A DNA stretch of 64,000 bases from Patescibacteria group bacterium (GCA_028687045.1 JAQUAW010000001.1:2034-66033); one strand, 5' to 3'; shown: positions 26,195 to 46,241, counted from the first letter of the stretch. Made by a program: numbers and translations. The notes: generated from the sequence alone by a model not told the origin.

Positions 26195-29134
26195 TCAAAG
26201 CTGTCTAAACTCACATATCTCCTTAAAATCACAATACTGACAAACATGTTTATTTGGGGTGGCTTTGAAATCCCCTTTTTGGATTCGTTCCATCGCGTCA
26301 AACAGCTTAGCTTCTAACTTTTCTTTGTCTTTGTCTGTACCTACAAAAGACATTTTCTTGTTTTCATTTAAATAAAAGAAAGTTAATTTGTCTATCTTTC
26401 CTAAATTTTGGTATTGTGGCAAAGTTTCCACAGCAATTTGATAAATAAGCAATTGTTGTTTGTCGTCAATTGTTAGTTTATCTTTTGGTGTACCAGTCTT
26501 ATAATCTATAATCTCCAATTTATTATCTTCCACAGCATCAATTCTATCTATTCTACCTTTGACAAAGTATTCCCCTATTTTGATTTTAAATCCGCCTTCA
26601 ATTGTCACTGGGATTGTCCAATTATTTTCTTGTGATTTGTAAAATTCTTTGAGTAATTCTTCACCTTTGGCAAAATATTCTTCTCTTTGGTTTTTACTCT
26701 TGTACCAATCAGGGATCCATTTTCTTTTGTAAATTGCGAGTAATTCTTCTTCATTTGGAATTTTTATTTTGCCCGTACTTTTGTTTTCGGTAACAGTCTC
26801 AAACAAAGATACTTGCTTAGCACTATTCATATCTTGTACTTTTTCATAAAATTCTTGCAAAGTCCCGTGAATAGTATTACCAAAACTAAAATGTGGACTA
26901 CCTTTACTTGGCAAATTCAAAACGTAAGCCAACTTGTAATTGTAAGGGCACTTTTGGTAAGTACTAATACGAGAATAAGAAAATATTTTTGGTGGAATGT
27001 ATTCTATTTCTTCCTCATCATTTTCTATTTGCGTATTTAGTTTTTTTATTTCTTGCATCAGAGTTTGTTCTTTTTCAACAAGTTTTTTTTCTTTATTATC
27101 GAAATCAAGCTCAGCCAAAAAGCGACTTATTTTCTTGGCTCTAGTTCCACCATAACTACTCGCACTTGTCAAAAATAATCTTTGTTTGGCACGAGTCACT
27201 GCCACATAGAAAAGACGACGCTCTTCCTGATAATGCAAATCATTGTTTTCCAAAAACTTTTCTCTAATAAGTTCATCTGGCAAAGCTATTCCTTCACTCT
27301 TGCGTCTAGTTGGAAATCTTTCTTCTACCAAATTTACAATGAAAACATTTTTGTATTCTAGACCTTTTGAACCATGAATAGTGATGATATTGACTGAGTC
27401 TGGTGTATCTTTGATTTGATTTATTTTGCCACCGTCCCCTGATTCGATGATGAATTCATAATTCTCGACAAAACCAGCCACATGGGCTCCAGGTACATTT
27501 TCTTCGTAAGTCCGAATAAGATCAAAAAATTGTTTCAAATGATAAATTTGTCTGATAACGTCTTTGTTTCCTTTATTTTCTTCAATAGTCAAATATGACA
27601 AATAACCAATGCTTTCCATAAATTGATAAAGCAAACTGGTTGGCTTTTCAAATTTACTTTGCTTGATTCCTTCGTGACAGGCGTTTAATAATTTGTTAGC
27701 CATTTCTATCGCGTGAGTAGACAAAAATAATTCTTGAGCTCGCTTGAGTGTTTCATAATAAGACATACTTTTTCTCTTGGCTGTACTTGTCACTTTTTGC
27801 AAATCGTTTTGACTAAATTCCAAAAACGGCATTTTTAGCAAACGAAAAAATGCTTTGTCATCATAAATATTAGTCAGAAGTGTGAGGAAATTGAAAGCAT
27901 CAATCACAATATCTTGACGATAAAGCCCTGCTGAAGCAAGATACTCAAAAGGAATGCCAAAGCTCTCCAAAGCGTTGCTAAATGGCTCTACGTGAGAATT
28001 GGCACGAACAAGAATTGCGAAATCATCCCAATTACTATCTTTATCATTTTCTTTTATTTCCACTATTTTGTTTATCACTCCTACTACTTCTTCATCAAGT
28101 GTTTCATAGTGTAAATGTTCTATTTGAGTGTGCAAATCTTTGAGACCACTTTCCAATCTTTTACTAATTTGTAATTTTTCTTCTAGACGATGTGGATTAT
28201 TATTTTTGATAGAGTTGTAAGCCAAATCCAAGATTTCTTGACCAGAACGATAATTGTCTGTCAGAACAATATTTTTGGCATTAGGATAATCTGTTTTGAA
28301 ATTCATGATGATAGCAACATTGGAACCACGAAAAGAATAGATAGCTTGGTCATCATCCCCTACTACTGTCAGTTTATTATTTTCGCCTGCTAACAATTTT
28401 ACCAATTGATATTGCGCCCAATTGACATCTTGAAATTCATCTACCATTATATATTTAAATCTTTTTTGTAATTTTTTGAGTACGTTTGGTCTGTCTTGCA
28501 AAAGTTTGACTGCATAAAAAATAATATCACCAAAATCCATTGACTCATTATCCAACAATAATTTTTGATATTTATTATAGGCATCAGCCAACTCAATCAA
28601 TCTATTTTTTTCTTGTTTTTCAGCTTCGTCTTTGTCCAAAATCAAAGACTTTACATAATCCAAATAAGCTTGAGGTGTTATCATTTCATCTTTGGCTTTG
28701 GAAAAGTGTGTAAGAAGTTCATGAATATAACGATTTGGACTACCCATTGGTCGATAATAATCAAAATTAAAATCATAAATATGTTCTCGCAAAAGCAACC
28801 AAGCGTCGGTCTCATTTAATAATTTGAAATGATTTGGTAGACCAATTTCAAGACCATATTCTTCCAAAACTTTTTGACAAAAACTATGAAATGTAGAAAT
28901 TTGCATTTCAGTATAATTGGCTTCAATCAGGTCGTCTACTCTATCTTGCATTTCTTGTGCTGCTTTGTCAGTAAAAGTCAAAGCCAAAATTTCTTCGGGC
29001 AAAGCCAATTTTTGCTCGACAATGTGAGCAATTTTTTTGGTAATGACGGTAGTTTTGCCAGTACCAGCACCAGCAATAATCAACAAATTACCATCGTTGT
29101 ATTCTATGGCTTCTTTTTGGTTTTTATTTAACAT
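26195..29134 (-). CDS. UvrD/PcrA-type superfamily-1 helicase fused to a C-terminal PD-(D/E)XK nuclease with a Cys cluster (AddA/RecB-like)
   Basis: N-terminal GAGTGKTT Walker A. C-terminal RIDRIDAV..IIDYKTG plus CQYCDFKEIC. Confidence 0.75.
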   Translation of the reverse strand: MLNKNQKEAIEYNDGNLLIIAGAGTGKTTVITKKIAHIVEQKLALPEEILALTFTDKAAQEMQDRVDDLIEANYTEMQISTFHSFCQKVLEEYGLEIGLPNHFKLLNETDAWLLLREHIYDFNFDYYRPMGSPNRYIHELLTHFSKAKDEMITPQAYLDYVKSLILDKDEAEKQEKNRLIELADAYNKYQKLLLDNESMDFGDIIFYAVKLLQDRPNVLKKLQKRFKYIMVDEFQDVNWAQYQLVKLLAGENNKLTVVGDDDQAIYSFRGSNVAIIMNFKTDYPNAKNIVLTDNYRSGQEILDLAYNSIKNNNPHRLEEKLQISKRLESGLKDLHTQIEHLHYETLDEEVVGVINKIVEIKENDKDSNWDDFAILVRANSHVEPFSNALESFGIPFEYLASAGLYRQDIVIDAFNFLTLLTNIYDDKAFFRLLKMPFLEFSQNDLQKVTSTAKRKSMSYYETLKRAQELFLSTHAIEMANKLLNACHEGIKQSKFEKPTSLLYQFMESIGYLSYLTIEENKGNKDVIRQIYHLKQFFDLIRTYEENVPGAHVAGFVENYEFIIESGDGGKINQIKDTPDSVNIITIHGSKGLEYKNVFIVNLVEERFPTRRKSEGIALPDELIREKFLENNDLHYQEERRLFYVAVTRAKQRLFLTSASSYGGTRAKKISRFLAELDFDNKEKKLVEKEQTLMQEIKKLNTQIENDEEEIEYIPPKIFSYSRISTYQKCPYNYKLAYVLNLPSKGSPHFSFGNTIHGTLQEFYEKVQDMNSAKQVSLFETVTENKSTGKIKIPNEEELLAIYKRKWIPDWYKSKNQREEYFAKGEELLKEFYKSQENNWTIPVTIEGGFKIKIGEYFVKGRIDRIDAVEDNKLEIIDYKTGTPKDKLTIDDKQQLLIYQIAVETLPQYQNLGKIDKLTFFYLNENKKMSFVGTDKDKEKLEAKLFDAMERIQKGDFKATPNKHVCQYCDFKEICEFRQL

Positions 29135-29164: not shown

Positions 29165-29283
29165 AAAATATCAATAATAAAAAAAAACTTCATCTATATT
29201 AAAATTGTTTAAGCTAGTATTATTCTACTACAATTCTTCAAAAAAACAAAATCTCCCCAACTAAGAGAGATTCTATTCCGCGT

Positions 29284-29320
29284 ATATCCGCGTAAATATC
29301 CGTTTAATCTGCGTTTTTAA
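29284..29320. repeat. Four phased TCCGCGT-like units with a 10-11-bp period
   Basis: TCCGCGTatatCCGCGTaaataTCCGTTTaaTCTGCGT. Related units occur at 46213..46239 and 19271..19287. Confidence 0.5.
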
Positions 29321-29463
29321 ACTCCACAATTACATCCACCACAACAACTGTCTTCTTTTTCTGTTTCCTCGTCACAAGCGCAAAAACCTTCATTATTGCA
29401 ACAGGTATCTTCTTGCTTTGGCTCTTCTTGTGAATCTTTTTCTTCTTTTGTTTCGTCTGACAT
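29317..29463 (-). CDS. Candidate 48-aa micro-protein: acidic N-terminus and a C-terminus with 8 Cys (…TCCNNEGFCACDEETEKEDSCCGGCNCGV). Not in the ORF track because it is under 60 aa.
   Basis: The ATG lies 13 bp downstream of the stop of 29477..30676 on the same strand, and the frame is open for 147 nt. Confidence 0.35.
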   Translation of the reverse strand: MSDETKEEKDSQEEPKQEDTCCNNEGFCACDEETEKEDSCCGGCNCGV

Positions 29464-29476
29464 ATATTTATTTTAG

Positions 29477-30676
29477 TTATTTAAGTAAATTTGGATACTT
29501 TTGAAAAAACATCTCCAAAACCTGACCATTTAGTCTGTAAACTTGATTTTCCTCGTCTTTCGTTACCCACATAGTATCTAGCAAATTTTGCATTATGCCT
29601 TCATTACTTAATGCAAAAGGCAGTTTTTTTCCCTGCATTATTTTTTTCAAAACATCCCTTTCTTCATCATTAAAAGTTTTTTGAAAAACTTGTCTATAAT
29701 GGTTAAATATGTTGTCAAAGTTTCTCTCTATTCTTTCAATGACATCTTCCATATCACTAGCCGTATAATTTAATTTCTTTACGTCAACAGAACAAAATTC
29801 AGCCAAAAATTCATTGACAAAATAATTTATTTCTCTAGCTTTACCACCGGTAAACTCGTAAATTTTTTCTATGGCATCAGGGGCAAAAGTAAGATAGCTC
29901 CCTTCCAAGTCTTTTTCTACTAATAATCTTGTCTCTTCCAAAGTAAGTGGTCTAATATAAAATTCTTGATAATCCTCACCAAATATTTTTTGTAACATCT
30001 TATTATTTTCTATATCTACAAAATGCAATACCAAAGCTATCTGCAGTTCATCCAAATTACCTAAACTTGCGATATATCTCAAAAATCCCTCATTATCTAT
30101 AACATTGACTACCTCATCAATGGCTATAAAACATTTAATATTATTATCTTTTAGATATTGATTTAAATACTCAAACGGTGTTTGTCCACTTTCTGTAATT
30201 TTTTCTCTTATTTCCTCAATACTAGCTTGTTTACCTTGTTCAATCTCTTTTTGACGAATAAATTTACAAACTTCATACAATCCAAATCGTTTTTTAAAAT
30301 AGTCTAAACTACTATCTGAAAGAATCGGAATAGCGTCAAACTTGATAGAATTATCTGCACCAAAGTCATTGACCAAGGAATTCAACATACTACTTTTGCC
30401 AATCCTTTTGAGACCTCTTATTGCTACATTTTGTCCAGCGAGTAAAGTATCTTGAATTTTCTTTTCTTGATCCAGACGAACAATACTTCTTTCTATACTG
30501 GCTTCACGTGTAATTCTTTCTCTTGTTTTTTCAAGATGAACTTCAAAAATTTCAGGTGATAATCTTGCTCTTACTTCTTCTAAAGTCAGTTCTTTTTCTT
30601 GTTGCTCAGTACTTTCATTCATTGTTAGTTTTTCTTCCTCTGGCACAAAAGGAAGATAATTATCACCTGTACCCAT
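29477..30676 (-). CDS. AAA+/P-loop ATPase of unknown function
   Basis: Walker A IRGLKRIGKSSML and Walker B CFIAIDEV. 399 aa. Confidence 0.55.
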   Translation of the reverse strand: MGTGDNYLPFVPEEEKLTMNESTEQQEKELTLEEVRARLSPEIFEVHLEKTRERITREASIERSIVRLDQEKKIQDTLLAGQNVAIRGLKRIGKSSMLNSLVNDFGADNSIKFDAIPILSDSSLDYFKKRFGLYEVCKFIRQKEIEQGKQASIEEIREKITESGQTPFEYLNQYLKDNNIKCFIAIDEVVNVIDNEGFLRYIASLGNLDELQIALVLHFVDIENNKMLQKIFGEDYQEFYIRPLTLEETRLLVEKDLEGSYLTFAPDAIEKIYEFTGGKAREINYFVNEFLAEFCSVDVKKLNYTASDMEDVIERIERNFDNIFNHYRQVFQKTFNDEERDVLKKIMQGKKLPFALSNEGIMQNLLDTMWVTKDEENQVYRLNGQVLEMFFQKYPNLLK

Positions 30677-30733
30677 AATATAAAAAATATAGTTGATTTA
30701 TGAAACTATAATATCATCTCTATAATACCCAAG

Positions 30734-32518
30734 TCAAGCCATAAAACCACCAACTTGAATATCCCACAAATTACGATAAATACCATTTTTTTTCTTCAAA
30801 AGTACTTTGTGTGAACCTTGTTCAAGAATTCCACCTTGTTCTATCACCAAAATTCTATTTGAATTCATAATAGTCGAAAGTCTGTGTGCGACGATAATGA
30901 CAGTCTTACCTTTCATCAGATTTCCCAAAGCATCTTGGATAAGCTTTTCTGACTTAGAATCTAAACTAGAAGTTGCTTCGTCCAAAATCAAAATTGGGGA
31001 ATTTTTTAGTATTGCTCGAGCTATAGCTACGCGCTGTCTTTCACCGCCCGAAAGCTTGATACCTCTTTCTCCTACCAAAGTATTGTAACCATCTGCCAAA
31101 TTCAAAATAAAATCATGAGCATTGGCTTGCTTGGCAACAGACATCACTTCTTCATCACTAGCATCTGGTTTAGCATAACGAATATTTTCCATGATACTTC
31201 TATGAAAAAGCATCGGGTCTTGTGGCACAAGACTGACATTTTGCCATAAACTTTCTTGCGTACACTTGGCAATGTTTTGTCCATCTATCAGAATTTTTCC
31301 ACCAGAAATATCATGTTGACGTAAAAGCAATTTTACAATAGTAGACTTCCCTGCACCTGAGGAACCAACGAGGGCTATTTTTTCTTGAGGCTTGATTACC
31401 AAATCCATTTTTTTGATTATTTCTCTAGTTTTGTTGTAAGCAAAAGAAACTTCTTTGAATTCTATTTTACCTGTCGTAACTTGTAATTTTTTGGCATTTT
31501 TGACATCTTGTATGTCATAAGGCATATTTAGTATCTCAGTCATTTCTTCGGCGTCAGCCAGTGATTCATAAAAATCTCTAATTACACGACCAAAGCCAAA
31601 AAACTTTTCAAAAATAATAATAAGATAAGATTGAATCAAAATAAAATCACCAACTGTAATACTACCAGCTTGCCAAACTTTGACAGCATAAAACAACATC
31701 ACGATTTCCAACAAAATCATCAACATCCATTGTATACCATCAAACCAAGTGGAAATGTCCCAAGAAAATTTTCTTATTTTCCTTAGATCTTCTGTTTTTT
31801 GTTCAAATTCTTTACACTCTCTACCATAACCAACCAACAACTTTACATTGGTATTATTAGTAAAAGAATCAGCCAAAAAAGCTCCAACCTTGGAATCTAG
31901 CTGACTTCTCTCAAAATCATATTTTAATTTGAATTTACTAAAAAAGTAACTAGTCAAAACAAAGATGAATATCCAAGAAATTATTATTAAAGCAAAAAAC
32001 TTGTTACGACTAAATAAGACAATAGAAATAAGTGTAACATTGATAATGATAGGCAAAAGATCCCAAATTATTCTATCTGAAATTCTATCAAAAGCTTGTA
32101 CAAATCTACCAACTTTTTTTACCAGAGAACCTACGAAGCTGTTGTTGAAAAAAGAAAAAGAATGTTTGTGAACTTTGGAAAAACAAGCATCATTCAAATC
32201 TTTTAGACTGTCTGTGCTAAACTTTATGTACAAAAAAGCCATGACACGGATAAAAAACCACTGCAAAATTTTTATACCCAAAATAATAAATAATGTGGTA
32301 TAGAGAATCTCAACATTAGGATTAGTAGACAAGACATCAAAAAACTTTTTGTACCAATAAGGAGCCAATATTGAAAAAGCATCACCAATCAATAACAACA
32401 AAAACATAGACATAAAGCTCCATTTGTATTTCCAAGCTTGTTGCCAATAAATTTTCAAAGTTATTTTGGTATTATTTTTCATAAGTAATTTATTTTTTTT
32501 GCAATAAAAAAACGTCAA
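30734..32518 (-). CDS. ABC exporter with fused permease and ATPase (MsbA-like half transporter)
   Basis: Six-TM N-terminal half, then GSSGAGKST Walker A, LSGGERQRVAIARAIL signature and ILILDEATS Walker B. Confidence 0.85.
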   Translation of the reverse strand: MTFFYCKKNKLLMKNNTKITLKIYWQQAWKYKWSFMSMFLLLLIGDAFSILAPYWYKKFFDVLSTNPNVEILYTTLFIILGIKILQWFFIRVMAFLYIKFSTDSLKDLNDACFSKVHKHSFSFFNNSFVGSLVKKVGRFVQAFDRISDRIIWDLLPIIINVTLISIVLFSRNKFFALIIISWIFIFVLTSYFFSKFKLKYDFERSQLDSKVGAFLADSFTNNTNVKLLVGYGRECKEFEQKTEDLRKIRKFSWDISTWFDGIQWMLMILLEIVMLFYAVKVWQAGSITVGDFILIQSYLIIIFEKFFGFGRVIRDFYESLADAEEMTEILNMPYDIQDVKNAKKLQVTTGKIEFKEVSFAYNKTREIIKKMDLVIKPQEKIALVGSSGAGKSTIVKLLLRQHDISGGKILIDGQNIAKCTQESLWQNVSLVPQDPMLFHRSIMENIRYAKPDASDEEVMSVAKQANAHDFILNLADGYNTLVGERGIKLSGGERQRVAIARAILKNSPILILDEATSSLDSKSEKLIQDALGNLMKGKTVIIVAHRLSTIMNSNRILVIEQGGILEQGSHKVLLKKKNGIYRNLWDIQVGGFMA

Positions 32519-33236
32519 TAGTATTATACACCTTTTGACGTTTTTTTAAAATAGTTTTTTTAAAAAATAAAAAACAATAATAAAAAATAATTATTGTTTA
32601 TCTTTAAAATCTTATAATTATTATTTACAAAATAAATTATAAAAAATTCAAATTACAATAATTAACAAATCTTTTGTCAAAATCAATCTAAATTTTTGTT
32701 TCAAAAAACCAAAACTTAGATTGATTGAGACGACGTACCTCCTTTGTTAAAGTAATCTCAATCCTCCTTTTGTTCTTCTTTTTTTTCGATGAGCCCTCAC
32801 AATGGGGGCTTTACCGAAGAATGGTGTTGAATGGCTCTGCCAAACACCACCACAAAGCTGAACCGAGCTACAAGAGGATGATCGGAACCCTCCACTTTAA
32901 ACTCGTATATACCAGACGTAACAAAAATAAACAGAAAATTATGATGCACTTCTTCGACTACTCGGCACTGTGGCCGCTTAGCCAAAAAGTGAATCATATA
33001 CATCAAAACGCCTTCATGCGTTTTGATGTGTTGACCACAAAAAGTTGGAAGAAAAGAGATACTACGTAGGTGATAAAGTCTGCAAACAGTCTTGATATCT
33101 CCACTGTTCACAGCACCAACACACCTCCCTAAAAAAGCTGTATTGCGCCGCCACGACTCTGTCGCGGCAGCTAAAAATAGAAACAAAGCCAAGAAAGGCA
33201 CTGTTGCCAAAAGATCCACCTGGACCTCCTAGAAAT

Positions 33237-33458
33237 GCGACTTCACAACGTGAGAACTTCTCACGCCATTCAGTCGCTGGTTTCTATCTAAAAAATAGAC
33301 AAAAATCAGCAACTGAATTTTTTGGCACGCACAAAATCATACTCTCCGACATATCCACTGTCAATTACTATATCCTTGACAGAGTGTAATTTGTCGTTCT
33401 ATTTGTAAAAGTTCTCTATACAAAAAAATACACCTAATTTAATAGATGTATTTTTTTT
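33237..33458. repeat. Copy 1 of a 210-220-bp direct repeat. It contains a GC-rich nested hairpin, a degenerate TTGACA palindrome and a terminal hairpin with a T run.
   Basis: About 90% identical to 33650..33866. Starts GCGACTTCACAACGTGAGAACTTCTCACGCCATTCAGTCGC. Confidence 0.7.
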
Positions 33459-33649
33459 GCCCCTCCTTTCCTCCTTTGTGTATGTGAATGGTTGGGCAAT
33501 TACCTCAAGCGGATCCCCAATAGCGGGAATCTCCACCTGAAGCCCCTGATTTCCGGCGGCTGTTTAGCCAGCCGGAAACCATCAACAACACAATGACGGG
33601 AGACACTCCCGCCAAAAACTCCAAAAAGCTCATGTGAGCCTCCGAAACG

Positions 33650-33866
33650 GCGACTTCGCAACGTGAGTACTTCCCACGCCATTCAGTCGCTAGTTTCTAT
33701 CTAAAAAATAGACAAAAATCAGCAACTGAATTTTTTAGCACGCACAAAATAATACTCTTTGACATATCCACTGTCAATTACTTTACCCTTGACAAATTTC
33801 AATTTGTCGTTCTATTTGTAAAAGTTATTTATATAAAAAAATACACCTATTTTCTAGGTGTATTTT
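33650..33866. repeat. Copy 2 of the same direct repeat. It contains the perfect palindrome CTTGACAAATTTCAATTTGTCG and the terminator TACACCTAttttcTAGGTGTATTTT.
   Basis: Aligns to copy 1 with a 413-bp period. Confidence 0.7.
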
Positions 33867-33885
33867 AATTAATTTATTTTAATTT

Positions 33886-35160
33886 CTAAACAAGATAACG
33901 TAAGAAAATATAGACAGTACACATCACCAAAGCTACAAAAGTCAAAGGTAATGCCATCTTCATATACTCCCAAAAACCAATACCATGACCTTCTTTACTA
34001 GCAATACCACTTACTACAACATTGGCTGAAGCACCAACCAAGGTCGCATTTCCACCAATATCAGCACCAAGAGCCAATGCCCACCAAATTGGTGCCAAAG
34101 GTAGTCCTGCAATAGTTCCTAAATCTTTGACAAGTGGGATCATAGTAGCTACAAATGGAATATTATCAATTACAGCTGAAAATATAGCTGAACCCCACAA
34201 AACACTCAAAGTAGTAGCTGTCATGTTTCCACCAGTAAGATTTAGCAAACCTTCAGCCAACATACGAATAGCGCCAACTTCTTCTAGAGCTACAACCAAG
34301 ATGAAAAGTCCCATGAAGAAAAATATTGTAGTCCATTCTACTTCTTTCAAATGTTCTTCTGGATCATGCATGGTCAAAAGCAACATAAGAGCAGCACCAC
34401 CAAGAGCGATAGTAGCACCTTCTAAATGAGTTACACTATGGGTAAAAAATCCAACCAAAACTATAGCCAAGACAAATAATGCTTTTTTTAACAATTTTAC
34501 GTCAGACAAAGCTTCTCTTGGATTAAATTTTGCGATAGTAGCTTGTGCTTCTGCAGTAGCCACAAGTTGCTTGCGATAAATGAAAACCAAAAGTGCAATA
34601 GTAACAATAGAAACAAGAACAGAAATAGGTCCAAGATTAACCAAAAAATCATTGAAAGTAAGACCACTAGCACTACCAATAAGAATGTTTGGCGGATCTC
34701 CGATAAGAGTAGCTGTACCACCAATATTGGCCAACAAAATAGCACCTATAAGAAATGGCTTAGGGTGAATTTTCAAATTATGAGCAACCACAAAAGTGAC
34801 TGGTATCATAAGAAGTACAGTAGTCACATTGTCGAGCAAAGCAGAAAAAACAGCAACAATAGTTAGTAATAATATATATATTTTTACAGGGTTACCCTTA
34901 CCAACTTTGGTAGCCCAGATAGCCACATATTGAAACATACCACTGTGTTTGGCTATTCCCACAATAATCATCATACCAATCAAAAGGCCTAGAGTATTGA
35001 AGTCAATCCCCTCAATTGCTTTTTCTTGTGTCACAATACCAAGCAAAACCATCAATCCCGCACCAGCCATAGCAATGACAGTACGATGAATTTTTTCAGA
35101 GATGATAATAGCGTAAGTAGTAATAAAGACAACAAGTGTAATCCAAAAAAAGATTCCCAT
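33886..35160 (-). CDS. ArsB/NhaD-superfamily ion transporter permease
   Basis: 424 aa, about 10-12 TM helices, with a duplicated internal-repeat architecture typical of the ArsB/NhaD/CitMHS group. Confidence 0.65.
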   Translation of the reverse strand: MGIFFWITLVVFITTYAIIISEKIHRTVIAMAGAGLMVLLGIVTQEKAIEGIDFNTLGLLIGMMIIVGIAKHSGMFQYVAIWATKVGKGNPVKIYILLLTIVAVFSALLDNVTTVLLMIPVTFVVAHNLKIHPKPFLIGAILLANIGGTATLIGDPPNILIGSASGLTFNDFLVNLGPISVLVSIVTIALLVFIYRKQLVATAEAQATIAKFNPREALSDVKLLKKALFVLAIVLVGFFTHSVTHLEGATIALGGAALMLLLTMHDPEEHLKEVEWTTIFFFMGLFILVVALEEVGAIRMLAEGLLNLTGGNMTATTLSVLWGSAIFSAVIDNIPFVATMIPLVKDLGTIAGLPLAPIWWALALGADIGGNATLVGASANVVVSGIASKEGHGIGFWEYMKMALPLTFVALVMCTVYIFLRYLV

Positions 35161-46170: not shown

Positions 46171-46241
46171 ATTATTAAATAAAAAGTTTAAAGTTTAAAG
46201 TATCTGTGTTAATCCGCGTTGTTATCTAATTATTCTGCGTA

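What the first reader, a model, noticed from the sequence alone, without database searches (positions are those of the whole stretch)
29317..32518. Co-directional ABC exporter, AAA+ ATPase of unknown family, and a 48-aa acidic, Cys-rich micro-ORF
Seen: the MsbA-like exporter (30734..32518) comes first. A P-loop ATPase (Walker A GLKRIGKSS, Walker B IAIDEV) follows after a 57-bp gap. Then, 13 bp later, an unannotated ORF encodes MSDETKEEKDSQEEPKQEDT-CCNNEGFCACDEETEKEDSCCGGCNCGV, with 8 Cys in its last 28 residues. Phased TCCGCGT repeats follow immediately.
Inference: the layout resembles a peptide-plus-processing-ATPase-plus-exporter module, such as a Cys-rich secreted or metal-binding peptide or a RiPP-like precursor with an acidic leader. 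No radical-SAM, lanthionine or peptidase gene is present in the window.
Basis: partly seen in the sequence, partly recalled or inferred. Interest (0 to 1): 0.6.

Follow-up and report, generated by a model that had tools for sequence, protein, structure and literature searches.

The report
Cysteine-rich microprotein beside ABC exporter
A tiny, acidic, cysteine-rich protein gene next to a membrane exporter is real and conserved in a small group of ultra-small groundwater bacteria, but the ATPase gene between them is a strain-specific insert, so the proposed three-gene module is really a two-gene pair with a variable slot in the middle.

Summary
On the minus strand lie an ABCB-type exporter (30734..32518), a P-loop ATPase (29477..30676), a 48-aa ORF with 8 Cys (29317..29463), short ACGCGGA repeats and a hairpin terminator.

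The micro-ORF is a real gene. Six alleles (48-51 aa) were found in related Ca. Magasanikbacteria contigs. All eight core Cys are invariant, all seven indels are in frame, and codon usage is gene-like. It always lies downstream of the same exporter, in four different genomic contexts, including relatives whose exporter is only 72% identical.

The ATPase is not part of a conserved module:
- It is absent from most relatives, where exporter and micro-ORF are 52-54 bp apart.
- It is present or absent among contigs that carry an identical micro-ORF allele.
- In other strains the slot holds two divergent ATPases or an unrelated 327-aa gene.
- Twelve other loci with family members have neither exporter nor Cys-rich peptide.

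No maturase, peptidase domain or GG leader is present, and most alleles carry a third Cys cluster in the supposed "leader". A RiPP reading is therefore unsupported.

The best guess is a metallothionein-like thiolate peptide functionally linked to the exporter. This function is inferred, not shown.

The parts
32523..32550 (-). Promoter-like site upstream of the ABC exporter (TTTAAA-16-TATAAT, preceded by TG)
   Evidence: Consensus scan and sequence reading. This is a consensus match only.
30734..32518 (-). ABCB-type half-transporter exporter (a transmembrane domain followed by a nucleotide-binding domain). It has no peptidase domain. The likely start is the ATG at 32482, giving 582 aa.
   Evidence: Pfam ABC_membrane (9e-27) and ABC_tran (1e-31). 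All NCBIfam equivalogs score below their cut-offs. It is 98% identical to Ca. Magasanikbacteria proteins. The best solved half-transporter match is NaAtm1 at 314 bits, against 306 for Sav1866.
30677..30733 (-). 57-bp leader of the inserted cassette. It carries a promoter-like site (30737..30708, TTGACT-18-TATTAT with TG) whose -35 hexamer overlaps the exporter's stop codon.
   Evidence: The same 57 bp is 93-98% identical in the two other 'occupied' alleles (L102, L051), although the exporter 3' ends are only about 80% identical between the two clades. Empty alleles have a different 52-54-bp spacer, again with TTGACA at the stop codon.
29477..30676 (-). Accessory P-loop ATPase with an NTPase, helical and winged-helix layout. 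It belongs to a small Patescibacteria family distantly related to PF01637 and occupies a variable slot.
29317..29463 (-). 48-aa acidic Cys-rich microprotein gene. It has two CC-x(2-5)-C-x-C clusters. This allele lacks the N-terminal C-x2-C-x-C cluster found in four of the six alleles.
29277..29314 (-). Short repeats of ACGC(A/G)GA type spaced 10-12 bp apart in the 3' untranslated region. Their function is unknown.
   Evidence: They are conserved in lineages A and B, partly conserved in C, and absent from E.
29239..29278 (-). Intrinsic terminator: a 15-bp hairpin followed by a U-run, closing the micro-ORF transcription unit.
   Evidence: RNA fold of -23.7 kcal/mol, z = -3.2. The stem is conserved in lineages A, B and C while the loop varies.

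Best explanation
The conserved unit is a two-gene pair, not a three-gene module. It consists of an ABCB-type homodimeric exporter followed by a 48-51-aa, strongly acidic, Cys-rich microprotein. The microprotein gene has its own promoter-like site, whose -35 hexamer overlaps the exporter's stop codon, and its own terminator.

The space between that promoter position and the microprotein start codon is a variable slot:
- empty in most relatives;
- holding this 399-aa ATPase in the window genome;
- holding two divergent ATPases of the same family in a sister strain;
- holding an unrelated 327-aa gene in a more distant lineage.

Whatever sits in the slot lies 12-27 bp upstream of the microprotein start. 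It is therefore probably co-transcribed with it from the cassette's own 57-bp leader. The ATPase is thus an accessory gene, probably exchanged by recombination. It is a PF01637-like, STAND/ORC-like NTPase with a winged helix and no effector domain, and its own function is unknown. It is not a peptide-processing enzyme.

The steps above are shown by comparative sequence evidence. The mechanism below is inferred.

The microprotein is a metallothionein-like thiolate peptide. It has 8-11 Cys in CC, CxC and CxxC motifs, almost no aromatic residues, no His, and no signal peptide or hydrophobic segment. It would bind soft metal ions such as Zn, Cd or Cu(I), or otherwise serve as a thiol carrier. The neighbouring exporter would either extrude the loaded peptide or act in the same stress response. 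This would resemble Atm1/HMT1-type exporters handling glutathione-metal or phytochelatin-metal complexes.

My confidence by step: two-gene pair plus variable slot, about 0.9. Metal or thiol chemistry of the peptide, about 0.4. The peptide as a transport substrate of the exporter, about 0.2.
For: The gene is real:
- Codon usage is gene-like and best in this frame.
- The genome lacks Shine-Dalgarno sites (1 of 37 genes has one), so the A/T-rich leader is normal for this organism.
- Six alleles from independent contigs are all open and end in CCGGC[ND]CGV-stop.
- A DNA alignment shows 7 indels of 3, 6, 6, 6, 15, 24 and 27 nt, all in frame.
- The eight core Cys are invariant, while 18 of 40 ungapped columns vary. 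My hypergeometric estimate from the alignment is P of about 0.004.
- Synonymous TGT/TGC changes occur at Cys codons.
- The conserved core survives between clades whose flanking spacers and 3' UTRs cannot be aligned.

Linkage to the exporter:
- The exporter and micro-ORF stay together in four contexts: CitMHS...ABC-mic-helicase; sulfatase-ABC-mic-helicase; Na/H exchanger-ABC-327aa-mic-sulfatase-helicase; and 480aa-ABC-mic-other gene.
- This holds across exporter divergence down to 72% identity.
- A promoter-like site with TTGAC(A/T) on the exporter stop codon is present in the window, in lineage A (L021) and in lineage E (L159).

The ATPase is accessory:
- It is present or absent among contigs with the identical peptide allele D. 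L163 is empty, while L160, L161 and L164-167 are occupied.
- The left leader is 93-98% identical across clades, against about 80% for the adjacent exporter DNA.

Metallothionein-like character:
- Composition is 16-22% Cys, 14-16 Asp+Glu, and 0-1 aromatic or His residues.
- There is no predicted regular fold (single-sequence AlphaFold2, pLDDT 67).
- The CCGGC[ND]CG motif recurs in short Cys-rich ORFs that look, from my memory of fungal metallothionein sequences, like those proteins, for example MSCSCSCCGGCNCGC....
- Non-Cys positions evolve about 10 times faster than the neighbouring genes (dN 0.06-0.11 against 0.007-0.011), while dS is similar.
- The best solved half-transporter match to the exporter is the Atm1-type heavy-metal exporter.
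Against: - No metal binding has been measured and there is no expression evidence.
- The peptide matches no Pfam, NCBIfam or PDB family, including the metallothionein families.
- It is far more acidic than classical metallothioneins, with long D/E/K linkers.
- The Atm1 hit beats Sav1866 by only 8 bits, and every NCBIfam exporter equivalog is far below its cut-off, so the exporter's substrate class is unknown.
- The phylogenetic range sampled is narrow: two exporter clades within one Magasanikbacteria-like group. Part of the adjacency could simply be inherited.
- The slot tolerates 1-2.8 kb inserts and the peptide has its own promoter, so tight co-expression with the exporter is not required.
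- An analogous 53-aa Cys-rich ORF in a 61% GC contig (L044) has no exporter within 4 kb.
Confidence: 0.45

Rival explanations
1. The microprotein is an exported, unmodified Cys-rich peptide and is the substrate of the adjacent exporter. It would act outside the cell, for example as a metal scavenger, a signal, an antimicrobial, or a factor in host-symbiont interaction for these episymbiotic bacteria. Disulfides would form after export.
For: - Adjacency to an ABCB-type exporter persists through four context changes.
- Non-Cys positions evolve about 10 times faster than the neighbouring genes while Cys positions are invariant. This pattern is typical of secreted Cys-rich peptides.
- Alleles are mosaic or polymorphic between near-identical strains.
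Against: - There is no signal peptide, no double-glycine leader and no conserved cleavage site.
- The exporter lacks a C39 peptidase domain.
- No immunity, receptor or two-component genes are nearby.
- The net charge of about -11 to -12 and the lack of any hydrophobic residues are unusual for bacteriocins.
- AlphaFold2 predicts no compact disulfide fold (weak evidence).
Confidence: 0.2
2. The microprotein is a cytoplasmic Cys-rich protein unrelated in function to the exporter. It could be a Zn or Fe-S binding redox or regulatory microprotein. On this reading the adjacency is inherited synteny in a compact genome.
For: - It has its own promoter-like site and terminator.
- The slot tolerates unrelated inserts.
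- The similar L044 ORF has no exporter nearby.
- Only two exporter clades were sampled.
Against: The neighbours on both sides of the pair change repeatedly while the pair itself never separates, in any of the roughly 35 contigs examined.
Confidence: 0.2
3. One reading: a three-part peptide, processing ATPase and exporter module, that is, a RiPP-like precursor with an acidic leader.
For: - The three genes are co-directional and tightly spaced in the window.
- A sister strain also has ATPase-family genes in the same slot.
Against: - The ATPase is absent from most relatives and polymorphic among contigs with identical peptide alleles.
- Another lineage has an unrelated 327-aa gene in the slot.
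- Twelve other ATPase loci lack both an exporter and a Cys-rich peptide.
- The N-terminus is not a conserved leader, and in four of six alleles it contains Cys.
- There is no maturase or peptidase, and no match to the SCIFF model.
- The ATPase fold is ORC/STAND/PF01637-like with a winged helix, which is not a known peptide-maturation fold.
Confidence: 0.03
4. The micro-ORF is a regulatory leader peptide. Ribosome stalling at the many Cys codons would sense Cys-tRNA supply and control the terminator just downstream, which is classical attenuation.
For: - A Cys-codon cluster sits at the very end of the ORF, about 40 nt before an intrinsic terminator.
- Only the Cys codons and a few neighbouring residues are conserved.
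Against: - The downstream gene differs between lineages (helicase, sulfatase-family protein, or another gene) and none is related to sulfur or Cys metabolism.
- Lineage E has a different 3' structure without a U-run.
- The downstream helicase has its own promoter-like site.
- Non-Cys motifs (ACDEE, GG, GV-stop) are also invariant.
- At 48-51 codons with three spaced clusters, the ORF is atypical for a leader peptide.
Confidence: 0.05
5. The micro-ORF is a non-functional chance ORF.
For: - It is short.
- A k-mer protein search found no homologues.
- Pairwise dN/dS is only moderately below 1, at 0.34-1.09.
Against: - Six open alleles were found.
- All seven indels are in frame.
- The eight core Cys are invariant across clades whose flanking DNA cannot be aligned.
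- Codon usage is gene-like.
Confidence: 0.02

Closest known systems
Metallothioneins, especially short fungal Cu-MTs of the Neurospora type and bacterial MTs such as SmtA/BmtA and MymT (comparison from my own knowledge of these families)
   Same: - Very small size.
- 16-22% Cys, arranged in CC, CxC and CxxC motifs.
- Virtually no aromatic residues and no His.
- No stable predicted fold without metal.
- Fast-evolving linkers with fixed Cys.
- The CCGGC[ND]CG motif also occurs in short metallothionein-like ORFs recovered by the same pattern scan.
   Different: - No detectable sequence homology to any metallothionein family.
- Extremely acidic, with 14-16 Asp+Glu in about 50 residues, and with long charged linkers.
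- Genetically paired with an ABC exporter rather than with a metal-sensing repressor.
- Metal binding is untested.
Atm1 / ABCB6 / HMT1-type ABC exporters, which handle glutathione-metal or phytochelatin-metal complexes
   Same: - The exporter is an ABCB-type half-transporter.
- NaAtm1 is its best solved half-transporter match.
- The partner is an acidic, thiol-rich ligand, conceptually like (gamma-Glu-Cys)n.
   Different: - Here the thiol ligand would be a ribosomal 48-51-aa peptide, not glutathione or phytochelatin.
- The margin over Sav1866 is 8 bits.
- No equivalog model is passed.
- The substrate is unknown.
SCIFF and other ranthipeptide or sactipeptide precursors (Cys-rich peptides of about 45 aa)
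   Same: Similar length, multiple Cys residues, and an unannotated small ORF.
   Different: - No adjacent radical-SAM maturase.
- No match to the NCBIfam SCIFF model.
- The conserved part is the C-terminal Cys core, and the N-terminus is variable and contains Cys.
Peptide-pheromone and class II bacteriocin loci (ComC/ComAB type)
   Same: A small polymorphic peptide gene sits beside an ABC exporter, and the peptide is more variable than its flanking genes.
   Different: - The exporter has no C39 peptidase domain.
- The peptide has no GG leader.
- There is no sensor kinase or immunity gene.
PF01637 'archaeal ATPase' proteins (PDB 2qen PABY2304, 2fna SSO1545) and STAND/ORC-clade NTPases. This comparison concerns the ATPase.
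   Same: - Walker A and Walker B motifs are present.
   Different: - It scores below the Pfam gathering threshold, at 27.6 against 33.2 bits.
- It forms its own small, mostly Patescibacteria family with signature motifs VRLDQE, RGxWRxGKTS and TGGRPxEIN.
- It has no sensor repeats or effector domain.
- It has no PADLOC match.

Membership tests
Metallothionein (operational definition) | Low molecular mass and high Cys content with CxC, CC and CxxC motifs | tested here: met
   The peptides are 48-51 aa with 8-11 Cys (16-22%). Motifs are CC-x(2-5)-C-x-C twice, plus C-x2-C-x-C in four of six alleles.
Metallothionein (operational definition) | Few or no aromatic or His residues | tested here: met
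   Five alleles have none, and the window allele has a single Phe.
Metallothionein (operational definition) | High metal content and metal-thiolate clusters | not testable with these tools
   This needs ICP-MS, ESI-MS or spectroscopy on the purified peptide.
Metallothionein (homology-based families in Pfam) | Significant match to a metallothionein profile | tested here: not met
   No Pfam family matched up to E = 10 for the window peptide, or up to E = 0.05 for alleles C and E. The PDB gave no relevant hit.
RiPP biosynthetic cluster | A maturase gene next to the precursor (radical SAM, LanB/C/M, YcaO, MNIO or peptidase) | tested here: not met
   The Pfam-scanned flanking genes between 17 and 48 kb are housekeeping, transporter, hydrogenase-like or complex-I-like, and ATP synthase genes. 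The relatives' loci also lack a maturase.
RiPP biosynthetic cluster | Conserved leader and variable core | tested here: not met
   The N-terminal third is the most variable part and contains Cys in four of six alleles. The C-terminal part is the conserved one.
SCIFF (TIGR03973) | Match to the family model and a paired radical-SAM maturase | tested here: not met
   The peptide gave no NCBIfam hit, and no radical-SAM gene is nearby.
Peptidase-containing bacteriocin/pheromone ABC exporters | An N-terminal C39 peptidase domain in the exporter and a GG leader in the peptide | tested here: not met
   The exporter has only ABC_membrane and ABC_tran domains, and its transmembrane domain starts at residue 38 or earlier. 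No GG or GA cleavage motif precedes the Cys core (sequence reading).
Atm1/HMT1-type heavy-metal ABC exporter | Specific affiliation with the Atm1/ABCB6/ABCB7 clade | tested here: inconclusive
   NaAtm1 is the top half-transporter hit at 314.5 bits, followed by ABCB6 at 312, Sav1866 at 306 and ABCB7 at 295. The best NCBIfam models are cyanophycin-associated and MsbA-like, and all are far below their cut-offs. No phylogeny or check of substrate-site residues was done.
PF01637 ATPase_2 (archaeal ATPase) | Profile score at or above the gathering threshold | tested here: not met
   27.6 bits against a threshold of 33.2. Nine of 36 family members hit PF01637 at E of 0.01 or better. Members also hit AAA_14, AAA_22 and nSTAND weakly.
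PF01637 ATPase_2 (archaeal ATPase) | Fold: a P-loop NTPase, a helical domain and a C-terminal winged helix | tested here: met
   [not shown]
STAND NTPases and known anti-phage defence ATPases | A sensor or effector domain fused to the NTPase, or a match to a known defence-system model | tested here: not met
   The 399-aa protein consists only of the NTPase, helical and winged-helix parts. PADLOC gave no hits for the window ATPase, and only weak P-loop-level hits for the L102 324-aa protein.

The most novel reading that the evidence does not exclude
Candidate-phyla-radiation bacteria are generally reported to lack glutathione synthesis (from my own knowledge, not tested here). They may use a ribosomally encoded, phytochelatin-like acidic poly-Cys microprotein as the thiol ligand of an Atm1-like ABC exporter. 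That would be a previously undescribed, genetically encoded system for export or detoxification of metals and thiols. In addition, the slot between promoter and microprotein gene would be a recombination hotspot through which strains swap STAND-like ATPases and other accessory genes, which then ride on the microprotein's transcription unit.
Probability: 0.15. Interest if true: 0.7.

Novelty: new variant of a known kind. Interest (0 to 1): 0.5.

Why it matters
Small proteins are systematically missed in the annotation of candidate-phyla-radiation genomes. This work establishes, by comparative evidence alone, a new uncharacterised microprotein family: 48-51 aa, 8-11 invariant Cys, strongly acidic, and stably paired with an ABC exporter.

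If the peptide binds metals or is exported, it would point to a new route of metal or thiol handling in organisms with minimal metabolism. It would also offer a very small, genetically encodable thiolate ligand.

The finding shows as well how a tight co-directional gene triplet can mislead. The middle gene is a strain-variable insert. The site is a natural example of cassette-like gene turnover between two conserved anchors in an ultra-small genome.

Finally, the ATPase defines a small, structurally confident but functionally unknown family of PF01637/STAND-like proteins found mostly in Patescibacteria.

Tried and rejected
1. The k-mer-indexed protein search with the micro-ORF returned no candidates, not even the query itself. 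This is uninformative: the 48-aa sequence is not in that collection, although the 50-51-aa alleles are.

2. The search for related loci with the micro-ORF on metagenomes gave 128 pattern matches, all rejected by the tblastn confirmation. I suspect a false negative caused by low-complexity filtering, because JGI contigs do carry the gene.

I replaced it with a hand-built degenerate two-motif DNA pattern.

4. The profile search with the ATPase alignment in the k-mer database found only 4 proteins.

5. PADLOC gave nothing for the window ATPase or its homologue P0002, and only weak P-loop-level hits for the L102 ATPase.

6. Rfam found nothing at gathering thresholds across the window, and only chance-level hits in 32500-33900. 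No tRNA genes were found.

7. A profile search of the ATPase family against PDB sequences gave nothing. Only the fold comparison worked.

8. Single-sequence AlphaFold2 of the peptide gave pLDDT 67 with no regular structure, which is uninformative.

9. Scans of viral contigs for the ATPase motif and for the peptide C-terminus both gave 0 matches.

10. Three literature searches found nothing relevant: 'Patescibacteria + cysteine-rich + small protein', 'metallothionein + candidate phyla radiation', and 'bacterial metallothionein + ABC transporter + operon'.

11. I suspected segmental duplication because two ORF pairs in the window have equal lengths (531 aa and 424 aa). I rejected this, because the paired proteins are unrelated.

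12. Most of the 120 metagenome hits to CCGGC[ND]CG were chance matches or off-frame matches, for example L081, which lies inside a 3081-aa low-complexity ORF, apparently eukaryotic.

13. The idea that the window allele's N-terminus is an E-type module acquired by recombination rests on 17 of 18 identical bases at the 5' end. MAFFT did not align the two that way, so I treat it only as suggestive.

Full report
**What is in the window.**

On the minus strand lie four features:
- an ABC exporter at 30734..32518, for which public gene callers use the ATG at 32482, giving 582 aa;
- a 57-bp gap, then a 399-aa P-loop ATPase at 29477..30676;
- a 13-bp gap, then a 48-aa ORF at 29317..29463 (MSDETKEEKDSQEEPKQEDTCCNNEGFCACDEETEKEDSCCGGCNCGV);
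- a short run of ACGC(A/G)GA repeats, then a 15-bp hairpin with a U-run (z = -3.2).

The next gene is a UvrD/AddB-type helicase-nuclease at 26195..29134 with its own promoter-like site. The flanking genes I scanned between 17 and 48 kb are core chromosome: tRNA synthetases, MreBCD, a PBP, DciA, a hydrogenase-like or complex-I-like cluster, and ATP synthase. The contig is a Patescibacteria MAG.

The Cys count alone is not decisive, because an off-frame stretch elsewhere in the window also reaches 8 Cys in 28 residues. However, the ORF's codon usage is at the 27th percentile of real-gene chunks and above 99% of spurious ORFs of similar length. The lack of a Shine-Dalgarno site is the norm here, since only 1 of 37 genes has one.

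**The ATPase family.**

Pfam gives only sub-threshold hits: PF01637 at 27.6 bits against a cut-off of 33.2, plus AAA_22 and AAA_14. An exhaustive HMMER search of 1.84 billion representative proteins found 102 family clusters, none more than 41% identical. They share the motifs VRLDQE, RGxWRxGKTS, DE and TGGRPxEIN.

A hand-built degenerate pattern found 11 further family loci in species-representative genomes, mostly Uhrbacteria, Saccharibacteria and Nomurabacteria. Together with the P0002 locus, that gives 12 other loci. None has an ABC exporter next door or a Cys-rich ORF behind the ATPase, and their neighbours are unrelated to one another.

**The decisive comparison.**

The exporter belongs to a cluster of at least 90% identity that includes Ca. 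Magasanikbacteria proteins. In those genomes the gene order is exporter, a 54-bp spacer, a 50-aa ORF, a terminator and the helicase, with no ATPase. The 50-aa ORF is the homologue of the window's micro-ORF:
- allele A: MQNTCQNCDCKEDKDEKEVAEDACCETGECACDEETDKEDSCCGGCNCGV;
- allele B: MSNTCQNCDCEENKDETKDPKDACCETGKCACDEETEKEDSCCGGCDCGV.

It added three lineages:
- allele E (L040/L159, 51 aa), behind an exporter only 72% identical and with different genes on both sides;
- allele C (L051 and L154-158), behind an exporter 72% identical to the window's and 90% identical to E's, with an unrelated 327-aa gene in the slot and a sulfatase-family gene moved downstream;
- allele D (L102/L160), behind a 99%-identical exporter, with two ATPase-family genes (324 and 586 aa) in the slot that are only 37% and 29% identical to the window's ATPase.

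Allele D also occurs, with an identical peptide sequence, directly behind the exporter with the native 54-bp spacer (L163). It occurs too with a truncated ATPase remnant upstream (L162). So occupancy of the slot is polymorphic among near-identical strains.

**Is the micro-ORF a gene?** Yes.
- All six alleles are open and end in CGV-stop.
- A nucleotide alignment needs seven indels of 3, 6, 6, 6, 15, 24 and 27 nt, all in frame.
- The eight core Cys are invariant while 18 of 40 ungapped columns vary. My hypergeometric estimate for this is P of about 0.004.
- Cys codons show synonymous TGT/TGC changes.
- The core (C-A-C-D-E-E and C-C-G-G-C-[ND]-C-G-V) is conserved between clades whose spacers and 3' regions cannot be aligned.
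- Within the close clade, dS is similar to the neighbours (0.09-0.27 against 0.15-0.24), but dN is about ten times higher (0.06-0.11 against 0.007-0.011). The linkers therefore evolve fast and the Cys scaffold is fixed.

Some 50-aa alleles are already deposited as 'hypothetical protein'. No Pfam, NCBIfam or PDB family matches the peptide.

**Architecture of the slot.**

In the three lineages scanned (the window, A and E), a promoter-like site has its TTGAC(A/T) -35 hexamer on the exporter's stop codon. The same hexamer sits on the stop codon in the other alleles as well. Empty alleles continue with a 52-54-bp spacer to the peptide's ATG.

Occupied alleles (the window, L102 and L051) instead share a 57-bp leader that is 93-98% identical. 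This holds even between clades whose exporter 3' ends are only about 80% identical at the DNA level. The inserted gene or genes end 12-27 bp before the peptide's ATG.

In L102 the last 21 nt or so of the native spacer are retained. In the window the junction lies at or just inside the 5' end of the micro-ORF. The window allele also lacks the N-terminal CxxCxC cluster. In this it resembles allele E, whose first 18 nt are 17/18 identical to the window's. I treat this only as suggestive.

The first 42 residues of the window ATPase and of the L102 324-aa ATPase are about 70% identical, while the rest is about 33% identical. This again points to mosaic exchange. I infer cassette turnover by recombination between the two conserved anchors. 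No integrase or transposase is present, and neither the ATPase motif nor the peptide C-terminus occurs in viral contigs.

**What it most likely does.**

Shown: a conserved exporter-microprotein pair that stays together through at least four changes of neighbourhood, plus an accessory, swappable middle gene.

Inferred: the microprotein is a thiolate-rich metal or thiol ligand. It has metallothionein-type composition: 16-22% Cys in CC, CxC and CxxC motifs, essentially no aromatic residues or His, no hydrophobic segment and no predicted fold. It is unusually acidic, which recalls phytochelatins.

The exporter is a generic ABCB half-transporter. Its best solved half-transporter match is the Atm1-type heavy-metal exporter, but only by 8 bits over Sav1866. 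A joint role in metal or thiol handling is therefore my best guess (about 0.4), and export of the peptide itself is less certain (about 0.2).

Rivals are an exported Cys-rich effector or signal, an unrelated cytoplasmic Zn or Fe-S microprotein, and a Cys-sensing attenuator. The last is unlikely because the downstream genes differ between lineages and none concerns sulfur metabolism. The RiPP model and the 'processing ATPase' model are not supported.

**Verdict.**

The ATPase is an insert, not a partner. I rate novelty as a new variant of a known kind: a metallothionein-like microprotein with no homology to known families, in a new genetic pairing. Interest is moderate (0.5). The comparative evidence for the gene and for the variable slot is strong, but the family is phylogenetically narrow and its biochemical function remains untested.

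Noticed in passing
window 33237-33440 and 33650-33853 (minus-strand features), within the 1.37-kb gene-poor stretch 32519-33885: A 204-nt direct repeat (91% identical, 413 nt apart). Each copy carries a near-consensus promoter (TTGACA-17-TATTAT or TATGAT) followed by GC-richer sequence with hairpins. No Rfam family matches. Gene callers place doubtful 42-aa and 140-aa ORFs at the corresponding position in relatives (L021). It may be a pair of unknown non-coding RNA genes.
   Followed up: partly
L005 and L006 (arms at 1-105/1431-1535 and 1-100/1426-1525); also L002, L003, L007 and L008: Upstream of the ATPase homologue P0002, a 432-aa Cys-rich, membrane-anchored protein gene is flanked by perfect inverted repeats of at least 100 nt. 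It occurs in both orientations among otherwise similar contigs. This suggests an invertible DNA segment, or an assembly effect at the repeat.
   Followed up: partly
window 46213-46240 (minus strand), in the intergenic region between the ATP synthase alpha and gamma genes: ACGCAGA and ACGCGGA motifs, like those behind the micro-ORF, recur here 21 bp apart, followed by ACACAGA. All four exact ACGCGGA copies in the window are intergenic (4 observed against 0.64 expected). This may be a shared protein-binding or RNA motif.
   Followed up: partly
L044 2309-2470 (minus strand), a 61% GC metagenome contig: A 53-aa ORF, MEECCKNKSEAAKEPKKEEGCCEECPDKGCDGCECSKPQNTSGCCGGCDCGNR, has 13 Cys and charged linkers in the same style as the micro-ORF. 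It sits in an intergenic slot with no ABC exporter within 4 kb. It may be an analogue or a distant homologue in another lineage.
   Followed up: partly
L159 3860-3886 and 3930-4005 (allele E locus): Allele E carries a GC-rich 27-nt in-frame insertion in its second linker (STQGGSDLV). It is followed by a strongly folding GC-rich hairpin (-33 kcal/mol, z = -4.9) without a U-run, instead of the ACGCGGA repeats and terminator seen in the other lineages.
   Followed up: partly
window, 37 long ORFs: Only 1 of the 37 long ORFs checked has a Shine-Dalgarno-like motif in the 20 nt upstream. Start codons are preceded by A/T-rich sequence, so translation initiation in this organism appears to be independent of Shine-Dalgarno pairing.
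   Followed up: partly
L051 2254-3237 (also L154-L158): A 327-aa protein with no Pfam or PADLOC family occupies the same slot in lineage C and is found in at least 6 contigs. It is unrelated to the ATPase. Its function is unknown.
   Followed up: partly
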